A DNA stretch of 64,000 nucleotides, from positions 5,134,744 through 5,198,743 of the forward strand of contig OY760937.1 in the NCBI GenBank assembly GCA_963664225.1, read 5' to 3'. The position numbers were made by a program, and so were the translations under genes. The notes beneath the pieces were generated by a model, which saw nothing but the letters and a program-made list of their open reading frames with translations, searched no databases and was not told the origin of the DNA. Numbering within the stretch: position 1 is the stretch's first letter; each line of letters starts with the position of its first letter. The stretch comes from Verrucomicrobiia bacterium (GTDB lineage Bacteria > Verrucomicrobiota > Verrucomicrobiia > Limisphaerales > UBA1319). Shown piece by piece: positions 30,405 through 41,722 of the stretch.

Positions 30405-31016
30405 ATGACAACGACAATTCTCGCAACAACGCTGGTCGAAGGGTTGCTCGTGTCAATGCAGTTCCTGGTGTTCCTGTCGATGGCCATTGGGGGGCTAATA
30501 TGTCTTGGTTTTGCGGCCATTTTTGGAGGACACCACGATGGCGAAATGGGACACGATATCGGCCATGTGGATCATGCCGGTGATCATGCCAGCGAACATG
30601 GCACTGGCCCGTCTTTTTTGTCGCCAAGGGTGTTTCTGGCGTTCCTGACGGGTTTCGGTGTGGCCGGAGCCATTGCCACGGTATATGGAGCGGGTCCCGG
30701 CCTGGCGACCGGCATCGGCTTTATTCCCGGTTTGGTCATGGCAATCCTTGCATGGTTTGTCGCATATTACCTTTTCAAGGAGCAGGTCAACTCCAGCATT
30801 CGTCCGGGACAGGTCGTCGGTTCCATCGGAACCGTTGTCACAGCGATTCAGGCTGGTGGTCTCGGCGAAATCAATGTTTCGGTGAATGGCCAGATTGTGC
30901 CGTACACGGCCGTGGCCGAAGATGGTGAAACTCCTTTTCGGGTTGGAACCCGCGTCAAAGTGATCCGTGACCTTGGCGACAAAGTTTCGGTAATCAAGGA
31001 GACGGGTGGCATTTAA
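30405..31016 (+). CDS. NfeD-family membrane protein (partner of SPFH/flotillin)
   Basis: 203 aa; N-terminal TM helices plus a C-terminal OB-fold-like soluble domain; directly upstream of the flotillin gene. Confidence 0.6.
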   Translation: MTTTILATTLVEGLLVSMQFLVFLSMAIGGLICLGFAAIFGGHHDGEMGHDIGHVDHAGDHASEHGTGPSFLSPRVFLAFLTGFGVAGAIATVYGAGPGLATGIGFIPGLVMAILAWFVAYYLFKEQVNSSIRPGQVVGSIGTVVTAIQAGGLGEINVSVNGQIVPYTAVAEDGETPFRVGTRVKVIRDLGDKVSVIKETGGI

Positions 31017-31075
31017 GGTGACGGCACCAAGGCACCGTGAAACGCAAAGGGAATTAAAACAGCGAAAGGAAGACT

Positions 31076-32911
31076 ATGATCATTCATTCAATGTTGGCGG
31101 AAATAAATTACGCCAGGGCGGTTGTTCCAGCGCTAATTGTGGGGTTTTTCATTGGCATGCTCTTCATCGTGTGGGCCATGACCAAGCGCTACAGGCGCAT
31201 TCCCCCGAATGCAATTGGCGTCATCTATGGCAAACGCCGCACTCAGATTACCGGTCCTGACGGCCAGAAATCGGAAGTGGGCTTCAAATTGGTATCCGGC
31301 GGCGCGGTCTTCATTTGGCCGATCGTTGAGGAATACGCGGAAATGTCCACCGAAGCGTTTCAGATTGAAATCAGTGAGGATAATATCCCATCGAAGAAAA
31401 ACGTTGGCGTCACTGTCTCGGGTGTCGCCACCTGTCGCATTTCTCCGATTCCCGAAGAGCAGATGAACGCCGTTCAAAACTTCCTGGGAAAAACGTTGGA
31501 GGAAATCAAGGGGATGATCGGTCAGATTCTCCGTGGTCACTTGCGTTCGATTGTCGGTGGTCTCGAAGTCGAGGAACTGCTGCGCGAACGATCCAAGTTT
31601 AACGAGATGGTCGTCAAGGAATGCTCGCCCGAACTCTCCCGCATGGGCATCCGGATTCTGACTCTGGTCATTCAGGATGTTAAGGACAAGGAGGGCTACA
31701 TTGATGCCCTTGGAAAACAGGCGGTCGCCATCGCCAAGCGGGATGCGCAAATTGCCACCGCCGAGGCGGAGCGGGAAACGAAGGTCAAGACCAGCGATGC
31801 CATACGCACGGCAGCCGAGGTCACGGCGCAAAACGATGCCTTGATCAAGGAGGCGGAAAAGAAGCGCGACATTCAAGTGGCTCAATTCCGGTTGGAGACG
31901 GCCACCAAGCAGGCTGAAGCGGACATGGCAGGCCCCCAGGCCAAAACCAGGCAGGAGCAAATCCTCGCAGTCCTGGAAGCCCAGAGGGACAGTGCCGCCA
32001 CCGAAGCTCGCACGAAAGTGCAGGAACTCGAGGCGCAGCGCAAACAGAAGGAATTGGAGGCAACCACCATTGTCACCGCCCAGGCCACAGCGAAAGCTTC
32101 AGTCATCAAATCCGAGGGAGAACGCAGCGCCGCGACGGTTCAGGCCGAAGCGCGCAAAAAAGTCGCCGAGCTTAATGCCGATACCGCCCGGCTTGAAGCC
32201 GAGGGACATCGCAACGCCCTCATTCTTGAGGGCGAAGGCGAGGGAAAGAAGCTTCAAACCATAGCCGAGGCCCAGGCCATTGCCACGCAAAAGACGAAGA
32301 CTGCGGAAGCCGAGGGCGAACGTGCCAGCCTGCTGGCCCAGGCGGATGGAACTAAAGCGGCCAGACTGGCCGAGGCGGCCGGTCGTGAACAATTCCTTCT
32401 CGCGGAAGCCAAAGGGAAGCAAAGCATGCTTCTGGCTGAGGCGGATGGTGCTGATAAAATGGCCGAGGCCATGAAAAAATTGTCCGAACAGGGCAAATTG
32501 ATCCTGGTTCTCGATCGTCTGCCCCACCTGCTCGAAGTCGGCGGCGAAGCGGGGCAGAAGATCGCCAAGGCGGTTTTCGATCCCATCGGCGTGGGTGTCA
32601 GCAAAATCGGCAATGTGACCATCACCGATCTCGGCGGCGGCAACACGGCGAAGAATGGCTTGTCCGCCATTGGGAACCTCGTTCCTCAAATCGTGGTGGA
32701 CTTCTTCACGCAGGCGAAAGCGCGTGGCATAGATCTCACGGAGCTTCTCAAGGCTTTGAAGATGGATCCGGCCCAATTGACCAGCATGCTCAATCCAACC
32801 GCGGAATCACAGCTTCCAACAGATGGTGCTGCTGAGGCTGCGGACTCTGCGAATCGGACTTCGGCACACAAGAGTGCCGGCGGCAACGCCACAAGCACCG
32901 AGGCCAATTAG
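31076..32911 (+). CDS. Flotillin-family SPFH/band-7 protein (FloT/YqiK-like)
   Basis: 611 aa; N-terminal TM segment, SPFH domain, long Ala/Glu-rich coiled-coil flotillin region. Confidence 0.85.
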   Translation: MIIHSMLAEINYARAVVPALIVGFFIGMLFIVWAMTKRYRRIPPNAIGVIYGKRRTQITGPDGQKSEVGFKLVSGGAVFIWPIVEEYAEMSTEAFQIEISEDNIPSKKNVGVTVSGVATCRISPIPEEQMNAVQNFLGKTLEEIKGMIGQILRGHLRSIVGGLEVEELLRERSKFNEMVVKECSPELSRMGIRILTLVIQDVKDKEGYIDALGKQAVAIAKRDAQIATAEAERETKVKTSDAIRTAAEVTAQNDALIKEAEKKRDIQVAQFRLETATKQAEADMAGPQAKTRQEQILAVLEAQRDSAATEARTKVQELEAQRKQKELEATTIVTAQATAKASVIKSEGERSAATVQAEARKKVAELNADTARLEAEGHRNALILEGEGEGKKLQTIAEAQAIATQKTKTAEAEGERASLLAQADGTKAARLAEAAGREQFLLAEAKGKQSMLLAEADGADKMAEAMKKLSEQGKLILVLDRLPHLLEVGGEAGQKIAKAVFDPIGVGVSKIGNVTITDLGGGNTAKNGLSAIGNLVPQIVVDFFTQAKARGIDLTELLKALKMDPAQLTSMLNPTAESQLPTDGAAEAADSANRTSAHKSAGGNATSTEAN

Positions 32912-33063
32912 CTCCGATCCAACGTTCATAATTCAAACCGGCTGTCGTGAAATGACGCAGCCGGTTTTTTATGAAGTTTGGAAACGGATATCCTCAGAAC
33001 TTTTTCTGCCAATTTGAAATACTTTGTCACGTCTTCGCACTTTTCAACCACTGATGCGACGAT

Positions 33064-35268
33064 ATGATGATAGCCAGAATGACTCCCGAGGCCACCAGTG
33101 AGGATGCGGAATTGGTCAACGCCAGCCTCGCGGGCAATCGCGAGGCGTTCGGACAGATTGTTTCGCGCTATCAGTCGCTCGTCTGTTCGCTGGCTTACAG
33201 CGCCACTGGCAGTCTAAGCCACAGTGAAGATCTGGCGCAGGAAACCTTTCTCACCGCGTGGAAACACCTGGCCGAATTGCGCGAACCGGCGAAGCTGCGC
33301 GCGTGGCTTTGCGGGATCGCGCGCAATCTCATCAATAGTTCGCTGCGAACACAAGTACGCGAGCCAAGCCATCGCGCCGAATCGCTGGATGTAATCACCG
33401 AATCGCATTCGCCTGAACCATCGCCCGTCGAACGCGCCATCAGCCAGGAGGAGGCGGATATTCTGTGGCGCTCGCTGGAGCGGATTCCGGAAAACTATCG
33501 TGTGCCGCTCGTCCTGTTTTATCGGGAACACCAATCCGTCGAAGCCGTTGCTCAAAATCTGGAATTGGAGGAGGACGCGGTGAGACAGCGCCTGTCGCGC
33601 GGGCGAAAACTGCTGCAGGAGGAAATACTGGCATTTGTGGAAGGCGCGCTGGAAAAGACTTCGCCGGGCAGGACGTTCACCCTGGCGGTAGTCGCCGCGC
33701 TGCCGATCGGTGTCACTTCGGCCACAGCGGCAACGGCCAGTGTCGCCGTGGCCAAAGGCGTGACGGGTGCAAAAAGCACCTTTGCGCTGGGCGCGTTGGT
33801 CGGATTGATGGCGATGCTGGGGGGTATTGCGTTCTCATGGAAGACAGCCGTGGAGGACTCAAAATCTCTGCGCGAAAGACGCTTCATGGTCCGAATGGGC
33901 TGCTTTCAGCTCGCTTTTTTCGTGGTTTCGATGGGAGCGGCCATGTATTTGCTTCCGAAACTTTCCGAGCGGCCTTGGACTTTCGGCCTCTTTCTGGCTT
34001 TGCTGATTGCAGCCAACGTCGTCAACGGGGTTGTTGTGCTTACCTATATGGTCCGCAGGCGGCTGGAAATCGGCATGGAAGAGGGCACATGGACCGAGTC
34101 GCTTGCGGGTGGACCGGATAATGTGAACAGGCCCAAAGCGGTTCGCAGGGCATTCAAATTGACGATTCCATTTCTGATCATGCTGGCGGGCATGGTTGTC
34201 GCGCTGCCGTGGAAACAGCATTGGATCAGAAGCGCCATCGTGACGGGGGCGGACGTTCTGATCATCCTTTGGTTTTTTCGCCGGACTCTGCGGCAACTGT
34301 GTTTCCAGAATCAGCCGCGCCTGAAATCCAAGCTTCCGGAGTTTATGCAAAACCCTTTCATCAAGCTTTCCTTCATGCTCTTTATCACCATGCTCGTCGC
34401 GGGTGTTGGTGGAATTCTGCTGCCGTTTTTTCTGAATCCCGAGGCGATGAAATCGGGTATCCCTGTTGCGACATGGCTGCGTCCGTTTGGCCTCTATTTT
34501 TTGGTCGCCGTCCTCGTCTATGTCATCGTGGCCCTGATCTTCTTTCGACGGCGCCAAATCCTCCCGAACTGGAAATGGCTCGCCGGCAAGTTGGACATGC
34601 CGTTTTTGAATCAACTTCAGGCAATGACCCAGGGACCGGACGCCGTCTTCAAGAAGACTTATGCGCCGCTCTTCCAGCAACTCAATCTTGGGCAGGACCA
34701 ACGCGTTCAATTGAAGGATTTGGTCCTTAAGCGGACCATGGTCGGCGTTCGCGTGGGCATGACCCTGATGAATTCGAAGCTCGACGCGGCAAAGCGCACC
34801 GAACTCGCACAGGAAACCAAACGCGAAACCGATGGTTGGAATACGAAGATCAAGGAATACTTGGGCGCGGAGAATTATGCGCAGTTTCAGCAATTCGAAA
34901 AGACAGTTCCCGACCGGACGATGCTCAATATGTTCGCCAAACGGTGTGACAAAACCGCTACAGCATTAAGTCCGGAGCAACAGGCGCAACTGCTGCAGGC
35001 GCTGACGCAGGCTCGCGAGGAATACCCATGGACCACGGAGTTAAGCCGTCGGAACCAGAACGCCGGCGATTACGAAGGGTTGTTCACGGAAGCCAATATG
35101 AGCACCTTCGCATTGGAGGAGGAGCAGTTCGACCGCCAATTTCTCGCACAGGCACAACTGATTCTGAACCCGGAACAACTCGCGGCGTTTGAAAAACACC
35201 AGCAACGTCAGCGCCAATCCCAGGTTGCCCAATTCAAAATGGCCGCAAAACTGTTCGTGCCAAAATGA
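33064..35268 (+). CDS. ECF sigma factor fused to a polytopic membrane domain and a periplasmic LTXXQ (CpxP/Spy-like) domain
   Basis: The N-terminal 190 aa carry sigma-70 regions 2 and 4 (DLAQETFLTAWKHL; [19 protein letters not shown]). About 7 TM helices follow. The C-terminal roughly 200 aa contain LSPEQQAQL and LNPEQLAAF LTXXQ-like repeats. Confidence 0.75.
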   Translation: MMIARMTPEATSEDAELVNASLAGNREAFGQIVSRYQSLVCSLAYSATGSLSHSEDLAQETFLTAWKHLAELREPAKLRAWLCGIARNLINSSLRTQVREPSHRAESLDVITESHSPEPSPVERAISQEEADILWRSLERIPENYRVPLVLFYREHQSVEAVAQNLELEEDAVRQRLSRGRKLLQEEILAFVEGALEKTSPGRTFTLAVVAALPIGVTSATAATASVAVAKGVTGAKSTFALGALVGLMAMLGGIAFSWKTAVEDSKSLRERRFMVRMGCFQLAFFVVSMGAAMYLLPKLSERPWTFGLFLALLIAANVVNGVVVLTYMVRRRLEIGMEEGTWTESLAGGPDNVNRPKAVRRAFKLTIPFLIMLAGMVVALPWKQHWIRSAIVTGADVLIILWFFRRTLRQLCFQNQPRLKSKLPEFMQNPFIKLSFMLFITMLVAGVGGILLPFFLNPEAMKSGIPVATWLRPFGLYFLVAVLVYVIVALIFFRRRQILPNWKWLAGKLDMPFLNQLQAMTQGPDAVFKKTYAPLFQQLNLGQDQRVQLKDLVLKRTMVGVRVGMTLMNSKLDAAKRTELAQETKRETDGWNTKIKEYLGAENYAQFQQFEKTVPDRTMLNMFAKRCDKTATALSPEQQAQLLQALTQAREEYPWTTELSRRNQNAGDYEGLFTEANMSTFALEEEQFDRQFLAQAQLILNPEQLAAFEKHQQRQRQSQVAQFKMAAKLFVPK

Positions 35269-35308: not shown

Positions 35309-38173
35309 TTATTTCGCCACTTTGCCTGGGTCATCCCATCGCACGGTGCGCAGCTCATACGGATGCAGTGAGAGTTCCAGTTTATCACCTTGCAAGGGCA
35401 GGGGACTGCCGGTCACGGCATTATAAGGCGTGCCGGAATTCAACAGACGGATTTTGATGCCGTTCTTTTGTTTGCTGCTCGTGTTCACCACCGCCATCCA
35501 TGCGCCTTGCTGCTCCGTGCGGATGACGCGCACAGCGATGTCGTTGTCGTCGCAGGCGTCCGTGATTCTCTTGCTGGGCAATGCGGGCAATGCGAGATAA
35601 TTGGCGTTGAACTCCCGCACGTAGATGGGAAAGCCGCGTCCGAGATTGTTGCCGAGCAGGTAGCCCAGCATGCTTGGATCGCCATTGGCCATGGCCAGCG
35701 CCTCGGCCATCATGCAGGCGGGGCCGGCCCGTTCGAAATCGGCCACGAAATAGCCAAGCTTTTCCCCGTCCCTGGTATCGAACATCATGTTTTCGTTCAG
35801 TGAATAATGCCGCACAAGTGCCAAACCCGCAGGACCGCGAAAGGCATCGAATGTCGCAGACGATTTCACCGTGTAGCTTCGATTAAAGCAATGGGTCATG
35901 AGCACTCCGGGCGTCTCACGGTAGCGTGCGGGATCGGCGGGTGGATTGCCGTGATTGATCTCCCATGCGCCCCAATTGAGCGGCGCTGCCTGCAGGGCCT
36001 CCAGATACAGATTCCCATCCAGGACACTTTGCACACTGATCGGCCGGATGGCTTTGCCGTCCACGATTTGACCCGGTGCATTGAGTATGCCGCGCCAGCC
36101 TTCCACATCGTCGGTCACCAGTTTCTTTTCCCAGGTTGGAAAGGCCGGACCCGGCTCGCCCGCTTCAGCGGTAAACAGCACCGCAGCCTCCGGGAGACCA
36201 TTGGCGCGCAGATAATCGCGAATGGCGGCGAGAAATTCGCGGCGTTTTCCAAACCACCACGCCTCGTATCGCTCCAGCAACTTTTTGTCGGCGATGAGTT
36301 CGGCGCGCGTCACTGCATGGCCGTCGTTTCCTTCCCGGGCAAACCGTCCGCGCGTTGACTCGCCAAAGCCCATCGGCAATTGCCAGCGCGGCCGCAGCCA
36401 GATGCCGTCGAAGCGGCACTTGTCTTTGAGCCGGACCACGGTGACATCGAGCATCTTCTGGAAATCCGCCAGTGTATCCGGATCGGTGATGTCCGCGTTC
36501 GCACTTTCGACCCACGAAATGGCTGTAAACGCATCGTCGCGTGTGAGCGGCTGGCAGCGGCGCTCGTAACCCAGACCCCGGCCTCCCTTGCTTCCCGCGT
36601 ATTCGTAATACGGCATCAACTCAAGACCGCAGTCGCCCATCAGCGAAACTATCTGCTCCCACAAATCCTTCGTGCCCGAGGCGAAATGGATCCAGTCGTT
36701 TCCGCCGTGGGGCGTCGGATCCCAGTGCTGGCACGCGCCAAATTCCAAGAGGTCCTTGCTGAAGGTGTTCATGCCCAGAAACCGCATCTGGTTTGCCTTG
36801 TAGCGATACCAGTCGAGGCGTTCTTTAACACCGCGCTCCGTGAGTTTGTCGCTCTCAATGACTCCATCAGCCATTTCTTCGCGCCAGGTAATATGACGTC
36901 GCGGGAGTGGCTCTGGCGGCAATCGAAGCGGTTGGGTGAGCGCCGTTTTATTGGGAACTTCCAGCAGTCGGATGCGCGACACCGCCGCTCCATGTGACGT
37001 GGGATCGTTCGGCGCGGAGAATTGCGCGATCACCACATCAAAGCCGTCCTCGATGCCCAACTTGCGTTCCCCGGGTCCTCGAATGAAGGCGAGATCAGGG
37101 AAGCGATCATGAAGGTTAAAATAAAGCGACCAGGTTTCATGGCCCCCGGAAAGCGGAATTTGCAACGACTCGGGATTGCCGTTCACATACTTGGCGTTAA
37201 GGGCGTCGCCGATGGTGTTACCGGTATGAAACCCACGCGATGTCTCGTTTCCGCCGTTCATCACCACATAACTGCGCGGTTGATCCTCTGGATATTCGAC
37301 CGCCAGCACATACGCCGCGCCCGGTTTGAGAAGTTTCCACTGGCCGATGCGAAACGCCATGTAGCTGCTCTGGTTGGTGGCCGGTTGCAGCACCCGGTAG
37401 GGGCGACCCAGAATTGTTTCGACACGGCTTGCGCCAGCCGGGTTCTCGCGAAACAAATGCCCCGGCGCCGCACTCCCACAATCCACCTCATCCACCACCT
37501 GAACACGACCGAACGGGGGCATTTCCACCCACGGCCGTCGCGCGACTTCCTCCCTTGCTTTCGCCAGTGCCGCTTCACGTTCCGCGCGCGCGGCAGCCTC
37601 AGCGGCCAATTGCGCCTGACGTTTTTGGAAACCCTCAGGGGTGAATTCGTACACGGCCAACCCGGTGAAATTTGCCCCGGCCGATTCCAGTTCAATCCTC
37701 AAATAACGTGATGTAACTTCAAGGGGGCAATGCACCCATTGCTGATAAAGACCACAATCGTTTGTGAGAACCTTTTTCCAATTCCCCGGTTCGCCGGTCG
37801 CCACAGTCCAAACGCCTGTGCCGTGCGTGTCATAAAACCACAGGGAGGACAGGTGCCGCGTCTGCCCCAGGTCGAGCGTGGCACTAAAGGGAAATTGGTT
37901 CCAATACTGTGCCGAAATGTTCCATCCTCGCCCTCCATGCTTTGGCGCGGCATTGGTGGTGCCGGGAGTGAAATCCTGTTCCTCGCAAAAACCCGAGAAA
38001 TCCGCCTGCTCCGAACTGCTGCGGATCATTTGTGGCATCAGCGGAATCCTCGCCTCCTGGGCATAAAGACTGCTCGTGGCCAGCACGTTGACCACAATGG
38101 CCAGACTGGCCAGCATGGGCCAACTGCAATTTTGCCAATTTGACATGGGCGGAATGTATGGCAGGCGCGGCAT
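35309..38173 (-). CDS. Large secreted protein with an N-terminal discoidin (F5/8 type C)-like domain; possible glycoside hydrolase
   Basis: 954 aa; signal peptide; an N-terminal galactose-binding-like domain of about 150 aa; a long uncharacterized catalytic-looking body. The true start is probably one of the internal Met residues before the signal peptide. Confidence 0.5.
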   Translation of the reverse strand: MPRLPYIPPMSNWQNCSWPMLASLAIVVNVLATSSLYAQEARIPLMPQMIRSSSEQADFSGFCEEQDFTPGTTNAAPKHGGRGWNISAQYWNQFPFSATLDLGQTRHLSSLWFYDTHGTGVWTVATGEPGNWKKVLTNDCGLYQQWVHCPLEVTSRYLRIELESAGANFTGLAVYEFTPEGFQKRQAQLAAEAAARAEREAALAKAREEVARRPWVEMPPFGRVQVVDEVDCGSAAPGHLFRENPAGASRVETILGRPYRVLQPATNQSSYMAFRIGQWKLLKPGAAYVLAVEYPEDQPRSYVVMNGGNETSRGFHTGNTIGDALNAKYVNGNPESLQIPLSGGHETWSLYFNLHDRFPDLAFIRGPGERKLGIEDGFDVVIAQFSAPNDPTSHGAAVSRIRLLEVPNKTALTQPLRLPPEPLPRRHITWREEMADGVIESDKLTERGVKERLDWYRYKANQMRFLGMNTFSKDLLEFGACQHWDPTPHGGNDWIHFASGTKDLWEQIVSLMGDCGLELMPYYEYAGSKGGRGLGYERRCQPLTRDDAFTAISWVESANADITDPDTLADFQKMLDVTVVRLKDKCRFDGIWLRPRWQLPMGFGESTRGRFAREGNDGHAVTRAELIADKKLLERYEAWWFGKRREFLAAIRDYLRANGLPEAAVLFTAEAGEPGPAFPTWEKKLVTDDVEGWRGILNAPGQIVDGKAIRPISVQSVLDGNLYLEALQAAPLNWGAWEINHGNPPADPARYRETPGVLMTHCFNRSYTVKSSATFDAFRGPAGLALVRHYSLNENMMFDTRDGEKLGYFVADFERAGPACMMAEALAMANGDPSMLGYLLGNNLGRGFPIYVREFNANYLALPALPSKRITDACDDNDIAVRVIRTEQQGAWMAVVNTSSKQKNGIKIRLLNSGTPYNAVTGSPLPLQGDKLELSLHPYELRTVRWDDPGKVAK

Positions 38174-38272: not shown

Positions 38273-39709
38273 TTGAAATTGAACAGGATGGGCATGATTA
38301 ATAAAAGACGTTTCATGTTGCTGCAGCGCAATTGTCTGCTTCAGGCAGGAGCATTCTTTTTGTGGCTCACGATTTCCGCCGCCACGGCTGCAAGTTCATT
38401 GGTATGGAGCAACACCCAAAAACGTGTCGATGCCGATATCAACGGCTGGAGCCTTGAGCACGTATTGGAGCAGATCGCGGGAGCGACCGGCTGGCAGGTT
38501 TTTGTGGAACCGGACTCAGGCAAAACCGTTTCGCTCAAGTTTCGCAATTTGCCTGTGGATGAAGCGATGAGCAGGCTTTTGGAGGGCATGAATTTCGCGC
38601 TGCTGCCTCAAACCAATGCCAGTTCCAAGCTGTTCGTTTTTAGCAAATCCATTAACGAAGCCACGCTCAGGGTGAAGCCCGCGGAAAATGCCAGCTTCAA
38701 ACCATCTGGCACCAACGCCATTCCCAACGAATTGATCGTCACGCTCAAGCCGGGATCCAAGCAGTCGATTGACGAATTGGCCCGTTTGTTGGGCGCAAAG
38801 GTCACGGGTCGGATCGACGAACTGGGCGCCTATAAGCTGCAGTTCAACAGCGAAGCCGATGCCACGGCCGCGCGCAGATTGCTCGCAGGCAATCCCGATG
38901 TTTCTGGCGTGGAATCCAATTACTCCATTGCACGGCCCACTCGCGCCGATGCCCTTTCGATGAGCGGATCGCTTGCCGGGAATTTGCAGCCAGCCAAGTC
39001 TGGGAACCAGTTTATCATTGGAATCGTGGATACCGGGATTCAAGCCCAGGAACCGAGCATCAGCAAGTTTCTGCTGCCCGGAGTCTCTTTGGCGGGGGAT
39101 ACGACGCTGCCCACGGATACCCCTACGCACGCGACCATGATGGCTGAGACGATCTTGAACGGAATATCGCAAATCATGGGCGGTTCCGGTGGCGAGGTGC
39201 CGGTGAAAATTTACAGCGTGAATGTTTTCGGCAACAACGAATCGACCACGACTTTCGATGTTGCCAATGGGATTCTTGCTGCGTTGAGGGCGGGTGCCAG
39301 TGTCATTAATGTCAGTCTGGCGGGTCCTGGAGACAGCCCGGTGCTGCAAAGGGTGACGGATATGGTTCATCAGCAGGGCGGATTGGTGGTTGCCGCCGCT
39401 GGAAATGACCCGACCGGCCAACCGGTGTATCCCGGGGCGGATCCGAACGTACTGGCGGTTACCGCTGGCGATCGGAATGGAAATCTGGCGTCTTACGCGA
39501 ATTGGGCCCCTTTTGTGGATATCATTGCCCCCGGCAACAACATTGTGAGCTTCGACAACAAACATTATCTGGTGTCCGGCACCTCGGTTTCCACAGCCTA
39601 TGTGAGCGGTTATGCCGCGGGATTGACTTTTAAGAACGGATCTTCGCTTGCTTCCGCCGTGACTGAAATCAAGAGTCGCTTGTCAACGGCTGCGAAAAGC
39701 TCATTTTAA
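38273..39709 (+). CDS. Subtilisin-like serine protease (peptidase S8) with an N-terminal propeptide-like domain
   Basis: Catalytic triad contexts IGIVDTGI (Asp), THATMMAE (His) and GTSVSTAYVSG (Ser); signal/TM segment at the N-terminus. Confidence 0.75.
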   Translation: MKLNRMGMINKRRFMLLQRNCLLQAGAFFLWLTISAATAASSLVWSNTQKRVDADINGWSLEHVLEQIAGATGWQVFVEPDSGKTVSLKFRNLPVDEAMSRLLEGMNFALLPQTNASSKLFVFSKSINEATLRVKPAENASFKPSGTNAIPNELIVTLKPGSKQSIDELARLLGAKVTGRIDELGAYKLQFNSEADATAARRLLAGNPDVSGVESNYSIARPTRADALSMSGSLAGNLQPAKSGNQFIIGIVDTGIQAQEPSISKFLLPGVSLAGDTTLPTDTPTHATMMAETILNGISQIMGGSGGEVPVKIYSVNVFGNNESTTTFDVANGILAALRAGASVINVSLAGPGDSPVLQRVTDMVHQQGGLVVAAAGNDPTGQPVYPGADPNVLAVTAGDRNGNLASYANWAPFVDIIAPGNNIVSFDNKHYLVSGTSVSTAYVSGYAAGLTFKNGSSLASAVTEIKSRLSTAAKSSF

Positions 39710-41722
39710 TCAAATCTTGGGCGTGGGTTGGCCGACTGTAGGTTGATGCAGCACCCGATGAAGCGCTTCCAGCAGGGGGGCGGTGGAGAATGGCTTTGCC
39801 AGGGAAATCCCAACGCCAAGATCCTTGGCTTCAATGGCTTTAGTTTTTGAGACGGCACCGCTTATGGTGATAACCTTGATTTCCGGGCGAATCTGTCGCA
39901 AAGCACGGATGGTTGCGATGCCGTCCATCATTGGCATGGCCAAATCAGTTAATACCACTTGAATTTCCGCCTGGTGTTGTGAAAATATTTTGAGGGCCTC
40001 AATTCCATCATTGGCAGTGACAACTCGATAATTAAATTGCTGGAGTGTTTCCCGCGTGATGTCACGGACCAGAGGTTCGTCTTCGACCAGCAGGATCAAT
40101 TCATTGGAACCATGCGGTAATAGATCCCCAACCGTGTGTTTATCGATGGGGGTTTGACTGGGAATAGAGTCGGGCATGGCGGGCAAATACACACGCATGC
40201 TGGATCCCTGGCCGGGCTTGCTGTCCACCTGGATAAAACCCGCGTGATTTTTAATCAGACCAAGAGAACTGCTTAAACCCAGGCCGCTGCCCTGGCCGAT
40301 GCTTTTGGTGGTAAAGAACGGGTCGAATATTTTGTCCTGGATTTCCGGCGCCATCCCGATGCCGGTATCGGCTACCTCGATCATCACATACGATCCGACA
40401 CGGGCTTCGGGATTTACCTGGACGAATTTCTCGTCCAATTCAACATTCGCGGTTTTGATGGAGAGTACTCCGCCTTGAAGCATGGCATCGCGGGCATTGT
40501 CGCATATGCTGGTAAGAATCTGTTGAAGATGGCTGGCATTTCCATAGAAAGGCCAAAGATCTTCGTTGATGGCGGTTTGTATCTTTATGTTTTCGGGGAA
40601 AGTTTCCCGGATCAGGATGATGACGTTCTCCACCACATGACGTGTTTGAATAAGGGCGTAATCCATTTCCGCCCCTTTGCTGAATGTGAGCATCTGGCGA
40701 ATCACATCTGCGCTGCGCCGCACACTGGTTTCGATTTGATTCAAAAGATGTTCCCTGGCTGCGTCATTGGTGGACTCGTGTCGGAGGAGGTCCACACCTA
40801 TGGCGATGGGCGCCAGGGCGTTGTTGAGGTCATGAGCGATACCGCCAGTCAGGGTGCTGATGCTCTCCAGCCGTCGGGCGCGTTGATACCGGGCCTGAGC
40901 CATTTTATGCTCGGTCAAATCTGTGTTAATAACGAGAATGGATTTTGCGGTGCCACTGCTGTCACGAATCAATGTCCAGCGGCTGTAAACATATAGGTCG
41001 CGCCCGTTTCTGCTGTTCAGGCGCAATTCGCCGGCCCATTGACTGGTTTGCAAAACCTGGCCATGAAGACTGGCCAGATGCGGAATTTCGTCCGGGTGAT
41101 ACATTTGTTCCACGCCAGCGCTGGACGCTTCGCCGACAGTCCATCCAAACATGCGCTGCGCGCCAATGTTCCAATAGCTGAGCCGCGAATCCAATTCGCG
41201 CACATAAATCGCATCGGGCACCAGGTCGAGCAGGGCGGCCTGCTCGCGGATGCGGTCTTCGGCTTGAATACGCTCGACCATTTGGTTGCGGAGTTTCAGA
41301 TTCGCGTTTGCCAGGTCGGCGGTGCGCTCGTTGACGCGGGTTTCGAGAGCATCACGACCCTGCTGTAAATCGGCTTCCACCTGATGCCGCACTTTGATTT
41401 CATCCCGGAGACGATTGTTTGCGGACTCCAGTTCGCTGGTTCGGGTGTCTATTTCATTTTGGATTTCTCTGCGCTGATGGCGCAATTGGATGGCGTAAAG
41501 GGTCAGGATGAGGGTCCATATGAGGCCCACGACAAACAGGAGCCAGACCGGAAGTTCGGAAGCGGTGGCGCTGAAAAACGCCGCTAAAAAACTGGAGGCA
41601 GCGAAATACGGTTCCGCCCAAGTGTTGTAGGAAATCCCGAAAACACTGGCGGCGATCAGAATAAACCCGGCTATTCGGCTCCCGGGTCCGAAGTCTCCGG
41701 CGTGATTCTTCGAATTCTTCAT
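39710..41722 (-). CDS. Hybrid sensor histidine kinase/response regulator (TM-PAS-HisKA-HATPase-REC)
   Basis: 670 aa; H-box GIAHDLNNAL; G-boxes; C-terminal receiver domain (LLVEDEP...DLAMP). Confidence 0.88.
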   Translation of the reverse strand: MKNSKNHAGDFGPGSRIAGFILIAASVFGISYNTWAEPYFAASSFLAAFFSATASELPVWLLFVVGLIWTLILTLYAIQLRHQRREIQNEIDTRTSELESANNRLRDEIKVRHQVEADLQQGRDALETRVNERTADLANANLKLRNQMVERIQAEDRIREQAALLDLVPDAIYVRELDSRLSYWNIGAQRMFGWTVGEASSAGVEQMYHPDEIPHLASLHGQVLQTSQWAGELRLNSRNGRDLYVYSRWTLIRDSSGTAKSILVINTDLTEHKMAQARYQRARRLESISTLTGGIAHDLNNALAPIAIGVDLLRHESTNDAAREHLLNQIETSVRRSADVIRQMLTFSKGAEMDYALIQTRHVVENVIILIRETFPENIKIQTAINEDLWPFYGNASHLQQILTSICDNARDAMLQGGVLSIKTANVELDEKFVQVNPEARVGSYVMIEVADTGIGMAPEIQDKIFDPFFTTKSIGQGSGLGLSSSLGLIKNHAGFIQVDSKPGQGSSMRVYLPAMPDSIPSQTPIDKHTVGDLLPHGSNELILLVEDEPLVRDITRETLQQFNYRVVTANDGIEALKIFSQHQAEIQVVLTDLAMPMMDGIATIRALRQIRPEIKVITISGAVSKTKAIEAKDLGVGISLAKPFSTAPLLEALHRVLHQPTVGQPTPKI

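What the first reader, a model, noticed from the sequence alone, without database searches (positions are those of the whole stretch)
33064..35268. One-polypeptide ECF sigma factor, 7-TM membrane domain and periplasmic LTXXQ (CpxP/Spy-like) domain
The 734-aa ORF starts with complete sigma region 2 and region 4 and continues through about seven TM helices. It ends in a roughly 200-aa periplasm-facing domain with repeated L(S/N)PEQ motifs reminiscent of CpxP/Spy envelope-stress sensors. It would combine the sigma factor, anti-sigma membrane tether and stress-sensing domain in one chain. That implies regulation by proteolytic release or by membrane-tethered transcription.
Basis: partly seen in the sequence, partly recalled or inferred. 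Interest (0 to 1): 0.6.

Follow-up and report, generated by a model that had tools for sequence, protein, structure and literature searches.

The report
Membrane-embedded sigma factor with helical tail
This gene encodes a real, evolutionarily conserved transcription-initiation (ECF sigma) factor built into a membrane protein with eight predicted membrane helices, but its helical tail is not a CpxP/Spy stress sensor and most likely faces the cytoplasm, not the periplasm.

Summary
The 734-aa ORF (33064-35268, +) is real. It carries intact ECF sigma regions 2 and 4 and a polytopic membrane region. About 35 full-length homologues (38-85% identity) share the fusion, so it is not a frameshift artefact.

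The tail belongs to a large unannotated helical family (3,178 representative clusters). Most members are about 330 aa: one TM, a coiled coil, then the domain. Their genes sit beside sigma-polyTM genes of this subfamily in 8 of 35 long loci.

A bipartite promoter-like box, TGTCAC-N17-CCAC, lies 12 nt before the start codon of the window gene, of its homologues, and of a subset of stand-alone tail genes.

Most likely this is an autoregulated, membrane-embedded ECF sigma factor whose cytoplasmic tail is a fused partner or regulator. It is a new variant of ECFs with C-terminal extensions. The mechanism is inferred.

The parts
32935..32973 (+). Intrinsic terminator ending the upstream SPFH/flotillin gene. 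It makes the sigma-fusion gene a separate transcription unit.
   Evidence: Hairpin AAACCGGCUG...CAGCCGGUUU followed by a U-run. RNA fold -21 kcal/mol, z = -6.15, 0 of 200 shuffles fold as well. Sequence read. The consensus scanner missed it because the loop is longer than 8 nt.
33025..33051 (+). Putative ECF-type promoter: -35-like TGTCAC (33025-33030), 17-nt spacer, -10-like CCAC (33048-33051). The ATG follows 12 nt downstream, so the leader is very short or absent.
   Evidence: Only copy in the 64-kb window. The same boxes and spacing lie upstream of family genes L001-L007 and L009, of CTD-less sigma-polyTM genes and of about 13 stand-alone CTD genes. In a 15-sequence alignment only TGTCAC, CCAC and the start codon region are invariant, and the spacers are unrelated between gene classes. 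There is no Rfam match. The -35 TGTCACA with N16 spacing is experimentally established for ECF41 (PMC3426412). Function here is inferred.
33064..35268 (+). Complete ORF of 734 aa, stop codon included: sigma, 8 TM, then the helical C-terminal domain.
   Evidence: Family of about 35 full-length homologues. A conserved second Met at residue 6 (ATG 33079) is an alternative start.
33160..33360 (+). Sigma-70 region 2 (residues 33-99).
   Evidence: Pfam PF04542, 58.7 bits. Majority-residue frequency 0.87 across the family.
33460..33615 (+). Sigma-70 region 4 (residues 133-184).
   Evidence: Pfam PF08281, 34 bits. Conservation 0.90.
33628..33777 (+). Conserved junction (FVEGALEKTSPGR), the Ala/Thr/Ser-rich segment A (residues 205-227, marginally hydrophobic; predicted first membrane crossing or hairpin arm) and the Lys-containing loop 1 (228-238).
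   Evidence: Conservation 0.79-0.81, far above TM3-8. Invariant F205, L213, P214, K237. Shared by all sigma-polyTM relatives. Simple Hessa dGapp +3.1 kcal/mol. Low pLDDT in the AF2 model.
33778..34542 (+). TM2-TM8 (residues 239-493). The K/R-rich loops 2, 4 and 6 are predicted cytoplasmic, including the conserved SLRERRF motif after TM2. The short loops 3, 5 (PWKQH, conserved) and 7 are predicted periplasmic.
   Evidence: Hydropathy and K+R counts. Helices in the AF2 model. Conservation per region.
34543..34653 (+). Poorly conserved, low-confidence linker (residues 494-530) that begins with FRRRQ.
   Evidence: Conservation 0.42. pLDDT below 50 at 505-524 and in the first roughly 28 residues of the CTD-only model.
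34654..35265 (+). C-terminal all-helical domain (residues 531-734) of an unannotated, widespread family. Predicted cytoplasmic.
   Evidence: AF2 CTD model pLDDT 82.9, pTM 0.76. Profile search: 3,178 representative clusters at E<=1e-3 and 1,304 at E<=1e-10. No Pfam or NCBIfam family. No PDB relative by sequence or fold.

Best explanation
The ORF encodes a genuine member of a conserved subfamily of membrane-embedded ECF sigma factors.

Anatomy. An intact sigma2-sigma4 module in the cytoplasm is joined, through a highly conserved junction and a marginally hydrophobic segment A, to seven further membrane helices. The chain returns to the cytoplasm and ends in a roughly 200-aa helical domain (CTD). 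The CTD belongs to a large, unannotated family and is not a CpxP/Spy (LTXXQ) domain.

Transcription. The gene is monocistronic. It is preceded by a bipartite ECF-type promoter, TGTCAC-N17-CCAC, with an almost leaderless start. This implies positive autoregulation (inferred).

The CTD as a partner. In other genomes the CTD is a separate protein (one TM, a coiled coil, then the CTD). That protein is often encoded directly beside sigma-polyTM genes of this subfamily, or behind the same promoter box. So the CTD is a regulon member and functional partner of this sigma subfamily, and in the window's lineage it has been fused in cis.

Most likely mechanism (inferred, not shown). The CTD acts on the cytoplasmic face as a feedback or inhibitory module for the tethered sigma domain, in the way an anti-sigma does. 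The polytopic domain senses a membrane or envelope cue that relieves this inhibition. Relief could come from a conformational change or from cleavage at the conserved segment A.
For: Shown:
- Sigma regions 2 and 4 pass the curated thresholds.
- The fusion is conserved in about 35 homologues down to 38% identity.
- There are eight hydrophobic segments. K+R inside/outside is 23.4/5.4 under N-in/8TM/C-in, with 33 of 33 members agreeing. The alternatives give 7.1/21.7 (segment A not a TM, 0 of 33 agree) and 15.4/14.4 (TM6 not a TM, 13 of 33 agree).
- The CTD is a confident helical bundle with no LTXXQ membership and no solved relative.
- The CTD family is large. Its dominant architecture is MK + one TM + coiled coil + CTD. 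A third architecture, sigma + segment A + TM + coiled coil + CTD, has the same sigma subfamily (P0170).
- In all three architectures the TM preceding the CTD is followed at once by R or K.
- Gene adjacency: 8 of 35 loci of at least 5 kb, plus one shorter locus, have a sigma-polyTM gene of this subfamily (296-355 bits, against about 50 for other ECFs) next to the stand-alone CTD gene. In 5 of them the sigma gene is immediately upstream.
- The promoter box is shared with fixed geometry by fusion genes, CTD-less sigma-polyTM genes and stand-alone CTD genes, with unrelated spacers.
- There is one copy of the box in the window, and a terminator lies upstream.

Precedent:
- The TGTCACA -35 with N16 spacing has been validated experimentally for ECF41.
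- C-terminal extensions are the second most common mode of ECF regulation.
Against: - The topology rests on the positive-inside rule only. No dedicated predictor or experiment was available.
- Segment A is only marginally hydrophobic: dGapp +3.1 kcal/mol here, family mean +4.6. It has pLDDT 31-42.
- The single-TM relatives begin with 'MK' and look like classical N-in signal anchors. Their net-charge difference (-0.59) would favour a periplasmic CTD, although the K+R count favours a cytoplasmic one (68 of 81).
- The link to the stand-alone CTD gene is facultative. None of 4 loci selected through CTD-less sigma-polyTM proteins has a CTD gene nearby.
- The CTD shows no detectable similarity to any solved anti-sigma domain.
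- No sigma-CTD contact was shown.
- Stand-alone CTD genes also carry other ECF-like promoter classes. That fits a general stress-effector role as well as it fits a regulator role.
- Weak echoes of LTXXQ exist: 4 of 17 CTDs at E>=0.081, and CpxP in Foldseek at E 1.9.
Confidence: 0.5

Rival explanations
1. Sigma (cytoplasm), seven TM helices, then a periplasmic CpxP/Spy-like stress-sensing domain. Activation is by regulated intramembrane proteolysis.
For: - The helix-start motifs LSPEQ and LNPEQ resemble LTXXQ.
- 4 of 17 CTDs give sub-threshold LTXXQ hits, and CpxP appears in Foldseek at E 1.9 with 28% identity over 102 columns.
- The single-TM relatives start with MK + TM like signal anchors, and their net-charge difference favours N-in.
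- If segment A is not a TM, all three architectures consistently place the CTD outside. Segment A is marginally hydrophobic.
Against: - With segment A not a TM, K+R would be 7.1 inside and 21.7 outside, in 33 of 33 members.
- None of 147 representatives has a cleavable signal peptide.
- R or K immediately follows the TM before the CTD in every architecture.
Confidence: 0.12
2. The CTD is a membrane-proximal stress effector or scaffold, comparable in logic to PspA/LiaH-type targets of envelope-stress regulators. It is the main regulon output of these sigma factors rather than their regulator. In this lineage it became fused to the sigma-polyTM protein for co-expression and co-localisation.
For: - The CTD family is about two orders of magnitude larger than the fusion family.
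- Stand-alone CTD genes sit behind at least three different ECF-like promoter classes.
- They also sit next to PadR or ArsR-SdpI modules.
- Adjacency to the sigma gene is facultative.
- ECF41 provides a precedent for a sigma whose only target is one neighbouring gene with no regulatory role.
Against: - A covalent 1:1 fusion of an effector to its own sigma factor is unusual.
- In 5 split loci the CTD gene lies immediately downstream of the sigma gene. That is the canonical anti-sigma position.
Confidence: 0.22
3. IutY-like pro-sigma. The membrane part is only a tether. The highly conserved segment A and loop 1 are a protease recognition site (site-1 and site-2 cleavage) that releases a soluble sigma of about 200 aa. 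The CTD serves as a sensing or degradation-control module.
For: - Segment A and loop 1 are as conserved as the sigma domain (0.79-0.81, against 0.5-0.6 for TM3-8). P214 is invariant and helix-breaking, and K231 and K237 are conserved.
- Segment A would have the N-in/C-out orientation that site-2 proteases use (established knowledge of RseP substrates).
- The sigma/anti-sigma fusion IutY is activated by Prc and RseP (PMC8999054).
Against: - No protease gene is conserved near family members, and no S2P-motif ORF lies in the window.
- No evidence of processing is available.
- This explanation is compatible with, rather than exclusive of, the best explanation.
Confidence: 0.15
4. Artefact: a frameshift or mis-assembly has joined separate sigma and membrane genes.
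For: In two MAG loci (L006, L007) the homologous gene is split over two reading frames.
Against: - The single uninterrupted frame is found in the window and in about 35 independent homologues from NCBI, ENA, JGI and Logan assemblies, all with both sigma domains.
- The junction is among the best conserved parts.
Confidence: 0.01

Closest known systems
ECF263 (Casas-Pastor et al. 2021 classification): ECFs with a polytopic C-terminal extension
   Same: An ECF sigma fused at its C-terminus to several TM helices: 5 TM in about 230 aa, or 7 TM in about 330 aa in subgroup s3. Some members come from Verrucomicrobia and Planctomycetes. None has been characterised experimentally.
   Different: - ECF263 is 90% proteobacterial and has a DUF2007 anti-sigma at -1.
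- Its promoter is TGCAC(A/C)-Xn-CGTC, and some members show desaturase homology.
- Its authors doubt that the extension is regulatory.
- Here the extension is about 540 aa (8 TM plus a helical domain), the promoter box is TGTCAC-N17-CCAC, and the upstream gene is an SPFH protein behind a terminator.
- Whether the CTD-less tier equals ECF263s3 could not be tested.
IutY of Pseudomonas putida (ECF243) and the ECF48/52/53 sigma/anti-sigma fusions
   Same: One polypeptide holds the sigma and a membrane-spanning C-terminal part. IutY is released by Prc and RseP proteolysis (PMC8999054).
   Different: - Those fusions have 1-2 TM helices and recognisable anti-sigma modules (FecR-like or zinc-finger), with the sensory domain outside the cell.
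- Here there are 8 TM, no anti-sigma Pfam domain, and the extra domain is predicted to be inside.
ECF41/ECF42-type C-terminal regulatory extensions
   Same: A sigma regulated in cis by a fused cytoplasmic C-terminal domain. ECF41 uses a TGTCACA -35 with N16 spacing and has one dominant target gene.
   Different: - The ECF41 and ECF42 extensions are soluble (SnoaL-like, TPR) and follow sigma4 directly.
- Here an 8-TM domain separates the sigma from the CTD, and the -10-like box is CCAC, not CGTC.
CpxP/Spy/ZraP (Pfam LTXXQ, PF07813; Metal_resist, PF13801)
   Same: All-helical proteins whose helices start with L-(S/T)-x-x-Q type capping motifs. They are stress-regulon members that also feed back on their regulator (established knowledge for CpxP).
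   Different: - No HMM, profile-profile or fold support.
- No signal peptide in the family.
- Predicted cytoplasmic location.
The ECF241-associated two-TM protein with occasional PF13801 hits (a prediction in Casas-Pastor et al. 2021)
   Same: A membrane protein linked to an ECF whose N-terminus is too short for an anti-sigma domain. An anti-sigma function was proposed for its cytoplasmic C-terminal part, which shows weak similarity to the CpxP clan.
   Different: It belongs to a different ECF clade (FecI-like) and has two TM helices. It is only a bioinformatic prediction, and no homology to the CTD was tested or shown here.

Membership tests
ECF (group 4) sigma-70 factors | Sigma region 2 and region 4 present above curated thresholds, with no region 3 or region 1 | tested here: met
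   PF04542 58.7 bits (cut-off 24). PF08281 34 bits (cut-off 25.7). TIGR02937 87.8 bits (cut-off 42.9). No Sigma70_r3 or r1 hit.
ECF (group 4) sigma-70 factors | A cognate bipartite promoter, usually autoregulatory, upstream of its own gene | tested here: inconclusive
   The conserved TGTCAC-N17-CCAC lies at a fixed distance from the ATG across the subfamily. Promoter activity was not measured.
LTXXQ / CpxP-Spy family (PF07813) | A match to the family HMM above the gathering score | tested here: not met
   No hit for the window protein at E<=10. 4 of 17 family CTDs hit at E>=0.081. The E. coli CpxP control scores 78.3 bits.
LTXXQ / CpxP-Spy family (PF07813) | Profile or fold similarity to solved CpxP, Spy or ZraP structures | tested here: not met
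LTXXQ / CpxP-Spy family (PF07813) | Periplasmic location (signal peptide, or an outside-facing topology) | tested here: not met
   K+R topology scoring puts the CTD inside in 33 of 33 members. No cleavable signal peptide in 147 representatives. This is a prediction only, with no experiment.
ECF263 | C-terminal extension with 5 or 7 TM helices (about 230 or 330 aa) | tested here: inconclusive
   The extension is polytopic but has 8 segments plus a 240-aa domain, about 540 aa in all. The CTD-less relatives of about 500 aa could correspond to subgroup s3.
ECF263 | Group promoter TGCAC(A/C)-Xn-CGTC and a DUF2007 protein at -1 | tested here: not met
   The box here is TGTCAC-N17-CCAC. The upstream gene is an SPFH protein followed by a terminator. 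No DUF2007 appears in the homologues' contexts.
ECF263 | Assignment by the ECF-classification group HMM | not testable with these tools
   The group HMMs (ECF Hub) are not available here.
Sigma/anti-sigma fusions (IutY-like, ECF48/52/53) | A recognisable anti-sigma module (FecR, ZAS/zinc-finger, RskA) C-terminal to the sigma | tested here: not met
Sigma/anti-sigma fusions (IutY-like, ECF48/52/53) | Activation by regulated proteolysis | not testable with these tools
   Requires protein-level experiments. No conserved protease neighbour was found.

The most novel reading that the evidence does not exclude
The helical CTD family (more than 3,000 representative clusters, no annotation) is a new class of cytoplasmic ECF regulator placed C-terminal to its membrane anchor. 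It would be an 'inverted' anti-sigma. The window protein would then be a true one-component transmembrane sigma factor, in which sigma, an 8-TM sensor and this regulator work in one chain. It may act while still embedded in the membrane, from a leaderless autoregulated promoter.
Probability: 0.2. Interest if true: 0.8.

Novelty: new variant of a known kind. Interest (0 to 1): 0.5.

Why it matters
ECF sigma factors with fused extensions are regarded as the 'one-component systems' of the sigma world. The polytopic ones have only been catalogued, never explained.

This case gives that class several concrete, testable features:
- a strongly conserved junction (segment A) that is a candidate cleavage or docking site;
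- a family promoter box, TGTCAC-N17-CCAC, with a near-leaderless start;
- a link by fusion, adjacency and shared promoter to a very large unannotated helical protein family in soil and peat bacteria.

If the tail proves to be a cytoplasmic regulator, it would define a new anti-sigma type and annotate thousands of hypothetical proteins. If it is an effector, it identifies the main output of an uncharacterised envelope-stress regulon.

The work also corrects a tempting but unsupported CpxP/Spy annotation.

Tried and rejected
- **Frameshift artefact.** Rejected by the conserved intact frame.
- **Conserved operon partners or a site-2 protease.** Contexts of P0014, P0003, P0033 and P0038 share nothing beyond the closest relative. 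No S2P-motif ORF lies in the window.
- **The 954-aa neighbour as a target.** It has no promoter box and no Pfam domain. It is syntenic only in the closest relative.
- **RNA element in the 5' region.** No Rfam family. The conservation pattern is two boxes with a free spacer, not paired columns.
- **Calibrating the topology with a relative carrying a domain of known compartment.** None of the variable C-terminal modules has a Pfam assignment.
- **TM-less CTD proteins as a compartment test.** Most look like truncated gene calls.
- **Reciprocal adjacency test.** 0 of 4 loci, so the pairing is facultative.
- **Not available.** The AFDB50 fold search was not on the machine. P0001 is not in the contig index. 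The organism's name was not established; one related locus is labelled Verrucomicrobiota.
Full report

The ORF 33064..35268 (+) of 734 aa is present exactly as described. Pfam finds Sigma70_r2 at residues 33-99 (58.7 bits, cut-off 24) and Sigma70_r4_2 at residues 133-184 (34 bits, cut-off 25.7). NCBIfam's general ECF model TIGR02937 scores 87.8 bits against a cut-off of 42.9.

A search with only the non-sigma part (residues 200-734) returned about 35 full-length proteins of 719-773 aa at 38-85% identity. All carry both sigma domains. They align end to end with the window protein. The fusion is therefore under selection and a frameshift artefact is excluded. Two MAG loci (L006, L007) do have the gene broken into two frames. 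That looks like an assembly or pseudogene matter in those records only.

**2. Membrane topology**

Kyte-Doolittle scanning gives eight hydrophobic segments, not seven, at roughly 205-227, 239-261, 274-297, 308-326, 363-381, 387-405, 439-457 and 475-493. Most homologues show the same eight.

Using alignment-based loop boundaries for all 33 members, the mean K+R counts are:
- loop 1: 2.0
- loop 2: 4.6
- loop 3: 1.1
- loop 4: 7.8
- loop 5: 1.0
- loop 6: 6.1
- loop 7: 1.3
- the first 15 residues after TM8: 3.2

Three topologies were scored on these counts:

| Model | K+R inside | K+R outside | Members with inside > outside |
|---|---|---|---|
| N-in / 8 TM / C-in | 23.4 | 5.4 | 33 of 33 |
| Segment 205-227 not a TM (7 TM, C-out) | 7.1 | 21.7 | 0 of 33 |
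| TM6 not a TM (7 TM, C-out) | 15.4 | 14.4 | 13 of 33 |

The sigma domain must be cytoplasmic. The highly charged, conserved motif after TM2 (SLRERRF here, with E271, R272 and R277 invariant) fixes that end of TM2 inside. The position of the C-terminal domain then depends only on TM3-TM8, which is six helices. It is therefore predicted to be cytoplasmic whether segment A fully spans the membrane or forms a hairpin with TM2.

Caveats:
- This is the positive-inside rule, not an experiment.
- Segment A and TM6 are marginally hydrophobic. Simple Hessa sums are +3.1 and +4.2 kcal/mol, and the family mean for segment A is +4.6.
- AF2 models residues 191-242 with low confidence.

**3. What is the C-terminal domain?**

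Modelled alone with 17 family sequences, it is a confident helical bundle (pLDDT 82.9, pTM 0.76). Four helices start with related capping motifs: LNLGQDQ, LGAENY, LSPEQQ and LNPEQL.

It is not an LTXXQ/CpxP/Spy member:
- No Pfam hit for the window protein at E<=10.
- LTXXQ is touched by only 4 of 17 family CTDs, best E 0.081. Genuine E. coli CpxP scores 78.3 bits in the same test.
- The CTD profile against all PDB sequences finds no CpxP, Spy or ZraP and no anti-sigma domain, even at E<=10.
- hhalign against CpxP gives probability 4.4%, aligning only 30 residues around one motif.
- Foldseek has no hit at E<=1e-3. CpxP 3itf_A is rank 15 at E 1.9.
- NCBIfam has nothing.

**4. The CTD is a large, unannotated family with its own typical architecture**

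A profile search of 1.84 billion representative proteins found 3,178 clusters at E<=1e-3 and 1,304 at E<=1e-10. Among the best 147:
- 84 are proteins of about 320-350 aa with one N-terminal TM, a coiled coil of about 70-100 aa, then the CTD.
- A few are sigma + segment A + one TM + coiled coil + CTD. One of these, P0170, has a sigma domain and junction of the window's subfamily.
- The rest are the 8-TM fusions or fragments.

In 81 single-TM members the N-terminus is 'MK', followed by about 21 uncharged residues and then almost always R or K. K+R is higher on the C-flank in 68 of 81 proteins. The net-charge difference slightly favours N-in, at -0.59. These proteins alone are therefore ambiguous.

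No member has a cleavable signal peptide. Applying the K+R rule uniformly puts the CTD inside in all three architectures. The rival reading (segment A not a TM, CTD outside in all three) is internally consistent too. It is contradicted by the 8-TM loop statistics.

**5. Link between the CTD and this sigma subfamily**

Eighty metagenome loci encoding stand-alone CTD proteins were fetched. They were scanned with an HMM of the window's sigma subfamily. Eight of 35 loci of at least 5 kb, plus one shorter locus, have a sigma-polyTM gene (387-661 aa) scoring 296-355 bits next to the CTD gene. Other ECFs score about 50 bits.
- In L056, L060, L074, L076 and L095 the sigma gene is immediately upstream.
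- L076 has three such sigma genes in tandem.
- In L065 and L078 the sigma gene lies downstream.
- L011 has one three genes upstream, 50% identical to the window protein over residues 11-326.

All these sigma proteins share the junction FVEGALEKTxPG-FTLGVxAALP...SAKAAT...AKGGAAAK, then TM2, then SPRER. After that come variable modules.

The reciprocal test was negative. Four loci chosen through CTD-less sigma-polyTM proteins (P0043, P0044, P0046, P0055) have no CTD gene within 5 kb. The pairing is enriched but facultative.

**6. A shared promoter box**

The window gene is separated from the upstream SPFH/flotillin gene by a strong terminator (-21 kcal/mol, z -6.15).

Directly upstream of the ATG, homologues whose proteins are only about 50% identical share YTTGTCAC-N16-ACCAC-N~10-GATATG. 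Where the motif occurs:
- The exact pattern occurs once in the window, at 33024-33051. With up to one mismatch 0.18 matches are expected by chance, and 16 of 100 shuffles gave at least one.
- It lies upstream of all family genes with upstream sequence, L001-L007 and L009.
- It lies upstream of CTD-less sigma-polyTM genes: L056, L060, L065, L079, L095, L011 and L101 exactly. L078 and L096 are one-mismatch variants, and L076 is more divergent in the -10 region. An unrelated ECF gene in L045 lacks it.
- It lies upstream of about 13 stand-alone CTD genes: 10 by regular expression plus 3 variants.

In a 15-sequence alignment only TGTCAC, CCAC (17 nt apart) and the start codon region (11-12 nt after CCAC) are invariant. 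The spacers are unrelated between the two gene classes. That pattern is what a bipartite promoter gives, not an RNA structure, and Rfam has no match.

A TGTCACA -35 with N16(+/-1) spacing has been demonstrated experimentally for ECF41 (PMC3426412). More distant subfamily members keep TGTCAC but have TCTA at the -10 position. Other stand-alone CTD genes carry different ECF-like boxes, TTGTCAT-N~17-CATTATC and TGTAAC-N16-GTCGTAG.

Inference: the sigma subfamily autoregulates from a near-leaderless promoter, and the CTD gene is a recurrent ECF target. Promoter activity was not measured.

**7. Context**

Beyond the closest relative, neighbours are not conserved. P0003 is 69% identical in the search with residues 200-734 and 75% over the full-length alignment. 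Its locus L002 keeps the 943-aa convergent gene, the S8 peptidase and the hybrid kinase.

The window holds no second sigma of this subfamily, no second CTD, no ORF with site-2 protease motifs and no second promoter box. The 954-aa neighbour has no Pfam domain. There is no sign that it is a target.

**8. Mechanism**

Shown:
- the domain composition;
- the conservation of the fusion;
- the non-membership in LTXXQ;
- the size and architectures of the CTD family;
- the adjacency statistics;
- the shared boxes.

Inferred:
- the C-in topology, about 0.75-0.8;
- autoregulation from TGTCAC-N17-CCAC, about 0.75;
- the CTD as a functional partner of the sigma subfamily, about 0.7;
- the CTD as a cis-acting inhibitory or feedback module, about 0.4.

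Segment A and loop 1 are unusually conserved (0.79-0.81, against 0.5-0.6 for TM3-8). This points to a sequence-specific role, such as a protease site as in IutY or a docking element. The conserved periplasmic PWKQH loop (0.89) is a candidate sensing site.

They are listed with their evidence in the rival explanations.

**9. Comparison with what is known, and novelty**

ECFs with C-terminal extensions are the second most common regulatory type. A group with a polytopic extension, ECF263, is catalogued. It differs from this family in taxonomy, promoter, partner gene and length, and its extension was considered possibly non-regulatory. No group in that classification combines a TGTCAC...CCAC box with a polytopic extension. 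Full-text searches found no characterised polytopic membrane-bound sigma factor.

The object is therefore a new variant of a known kind. The link to a very large unannotated helical family is the new element.

**10. Verdict**

Interest is moderate (0.5). The system is clean and testable, and it would matter to specialists in ECF signalling. Its mechanism remains inferential.

Noticed in passing
window 30405-32911 (+): A 203-aa membrane protein with no Pfam hit, followed by a 611-aa SPFH/Band-7 (flotillin-like) protein with a long Ala/Glu/Lys-rich tail. The pair ends at the strong terminator at 32935-32973. It is not conserved next to homologues of the sigma fusion.
   Followed up: partly
window 35309-38173 (-), 38273-39709 (+), 39710-41722 (-): A convergent 954-aa protein with an N-terminal signal-like segment and no Pfam domain. 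Next come a subtilase (Peptidase_S8 plus a fervidolysin-like prodomain and a weak STN hit) and a PAS-HisKA-HATPase-receiver hybrid kinase. The same trio follows the closest homologue (L002) but not more distant ones.
   Followed up: partly
L076 3-7774: Three tandem paralogous sigma-polyTM genes of the same subfamily (546, 564 and 497 aa), followed by a single stand-alone CTD gene.
   Followed up: no
L060 5221-6381; L095 4831-6813: Members of the sigma subfamily that end in a different soluble domain of about 120 aa, finishing ...NLAVRQDNPE(G/Q)KWY(F/W)DGG(F/L). It has no Pfam match. So the conserved sigma-junction unit is combined with several alternative C-terminal modules.
   Followed up: partly
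L016-L095, 75 nt upstream of the stand-alone CTD genes: Besides TGTCAC-N17-CCAC there are at least two other recurrent ECF-like upstream classes: TTGTCAT-N~17-CATTATC (about 12-14 loci) and TGTAAC-N16-GTCGTAG (about 7 loci). This suggests that different ECF groups drive CTD genes in different lineages.
   Followed up: partly
L010 183-3392; L011-L014 (e.g. L011 2938-5008): Some stand-alone CTD genes lie downstream of small membrane-linked regulator modules. One is PadR plus three small unknown proteins. Another is an ArsR-type HTH plus an SdpI-like membrane protein.
   Followed up: no
L006 4071-6720; L007 4445-6690: In two MAGs from one study the homologous sigma-8TM-CTD gene is split over two reading frames. 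These correspond to fragments P0039 and P0024. The cause is probably assembly errors, or possibly pseudogenes.
   Followed up: no
window 34207-34221 (residues 382-386, PWKQH): A five-residue loop between TM5 and TM6, predicted periplasmic, is nearly invariant across the family (P382 and W383 invariant; conservation 0.89). The flanking helices are poorly conserved.
   Followed up: no
L021, L026, L028, L030, L035, L039, L047: about 20-35 nt upstream of TGTCAC: Class-1 stand-alone CTD genes share a further conserved block (GGGTCCGTGATGAAT) upstream of the -35-like box. Its meaning is unknown; it could be shared ancestry or a second binding site.
   Followed up: no
window 33064-33081: The ORF starts ATGATG...AGAATG. 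A Met at residue 6 is the first position conserved across the family, and the database copy (P0001) starts at the second ATG. With CCAC only 12 nt upstream of the first ATG, the mRNA may be leaderless, and the true start codon is uncertain.
   Followed up: partly
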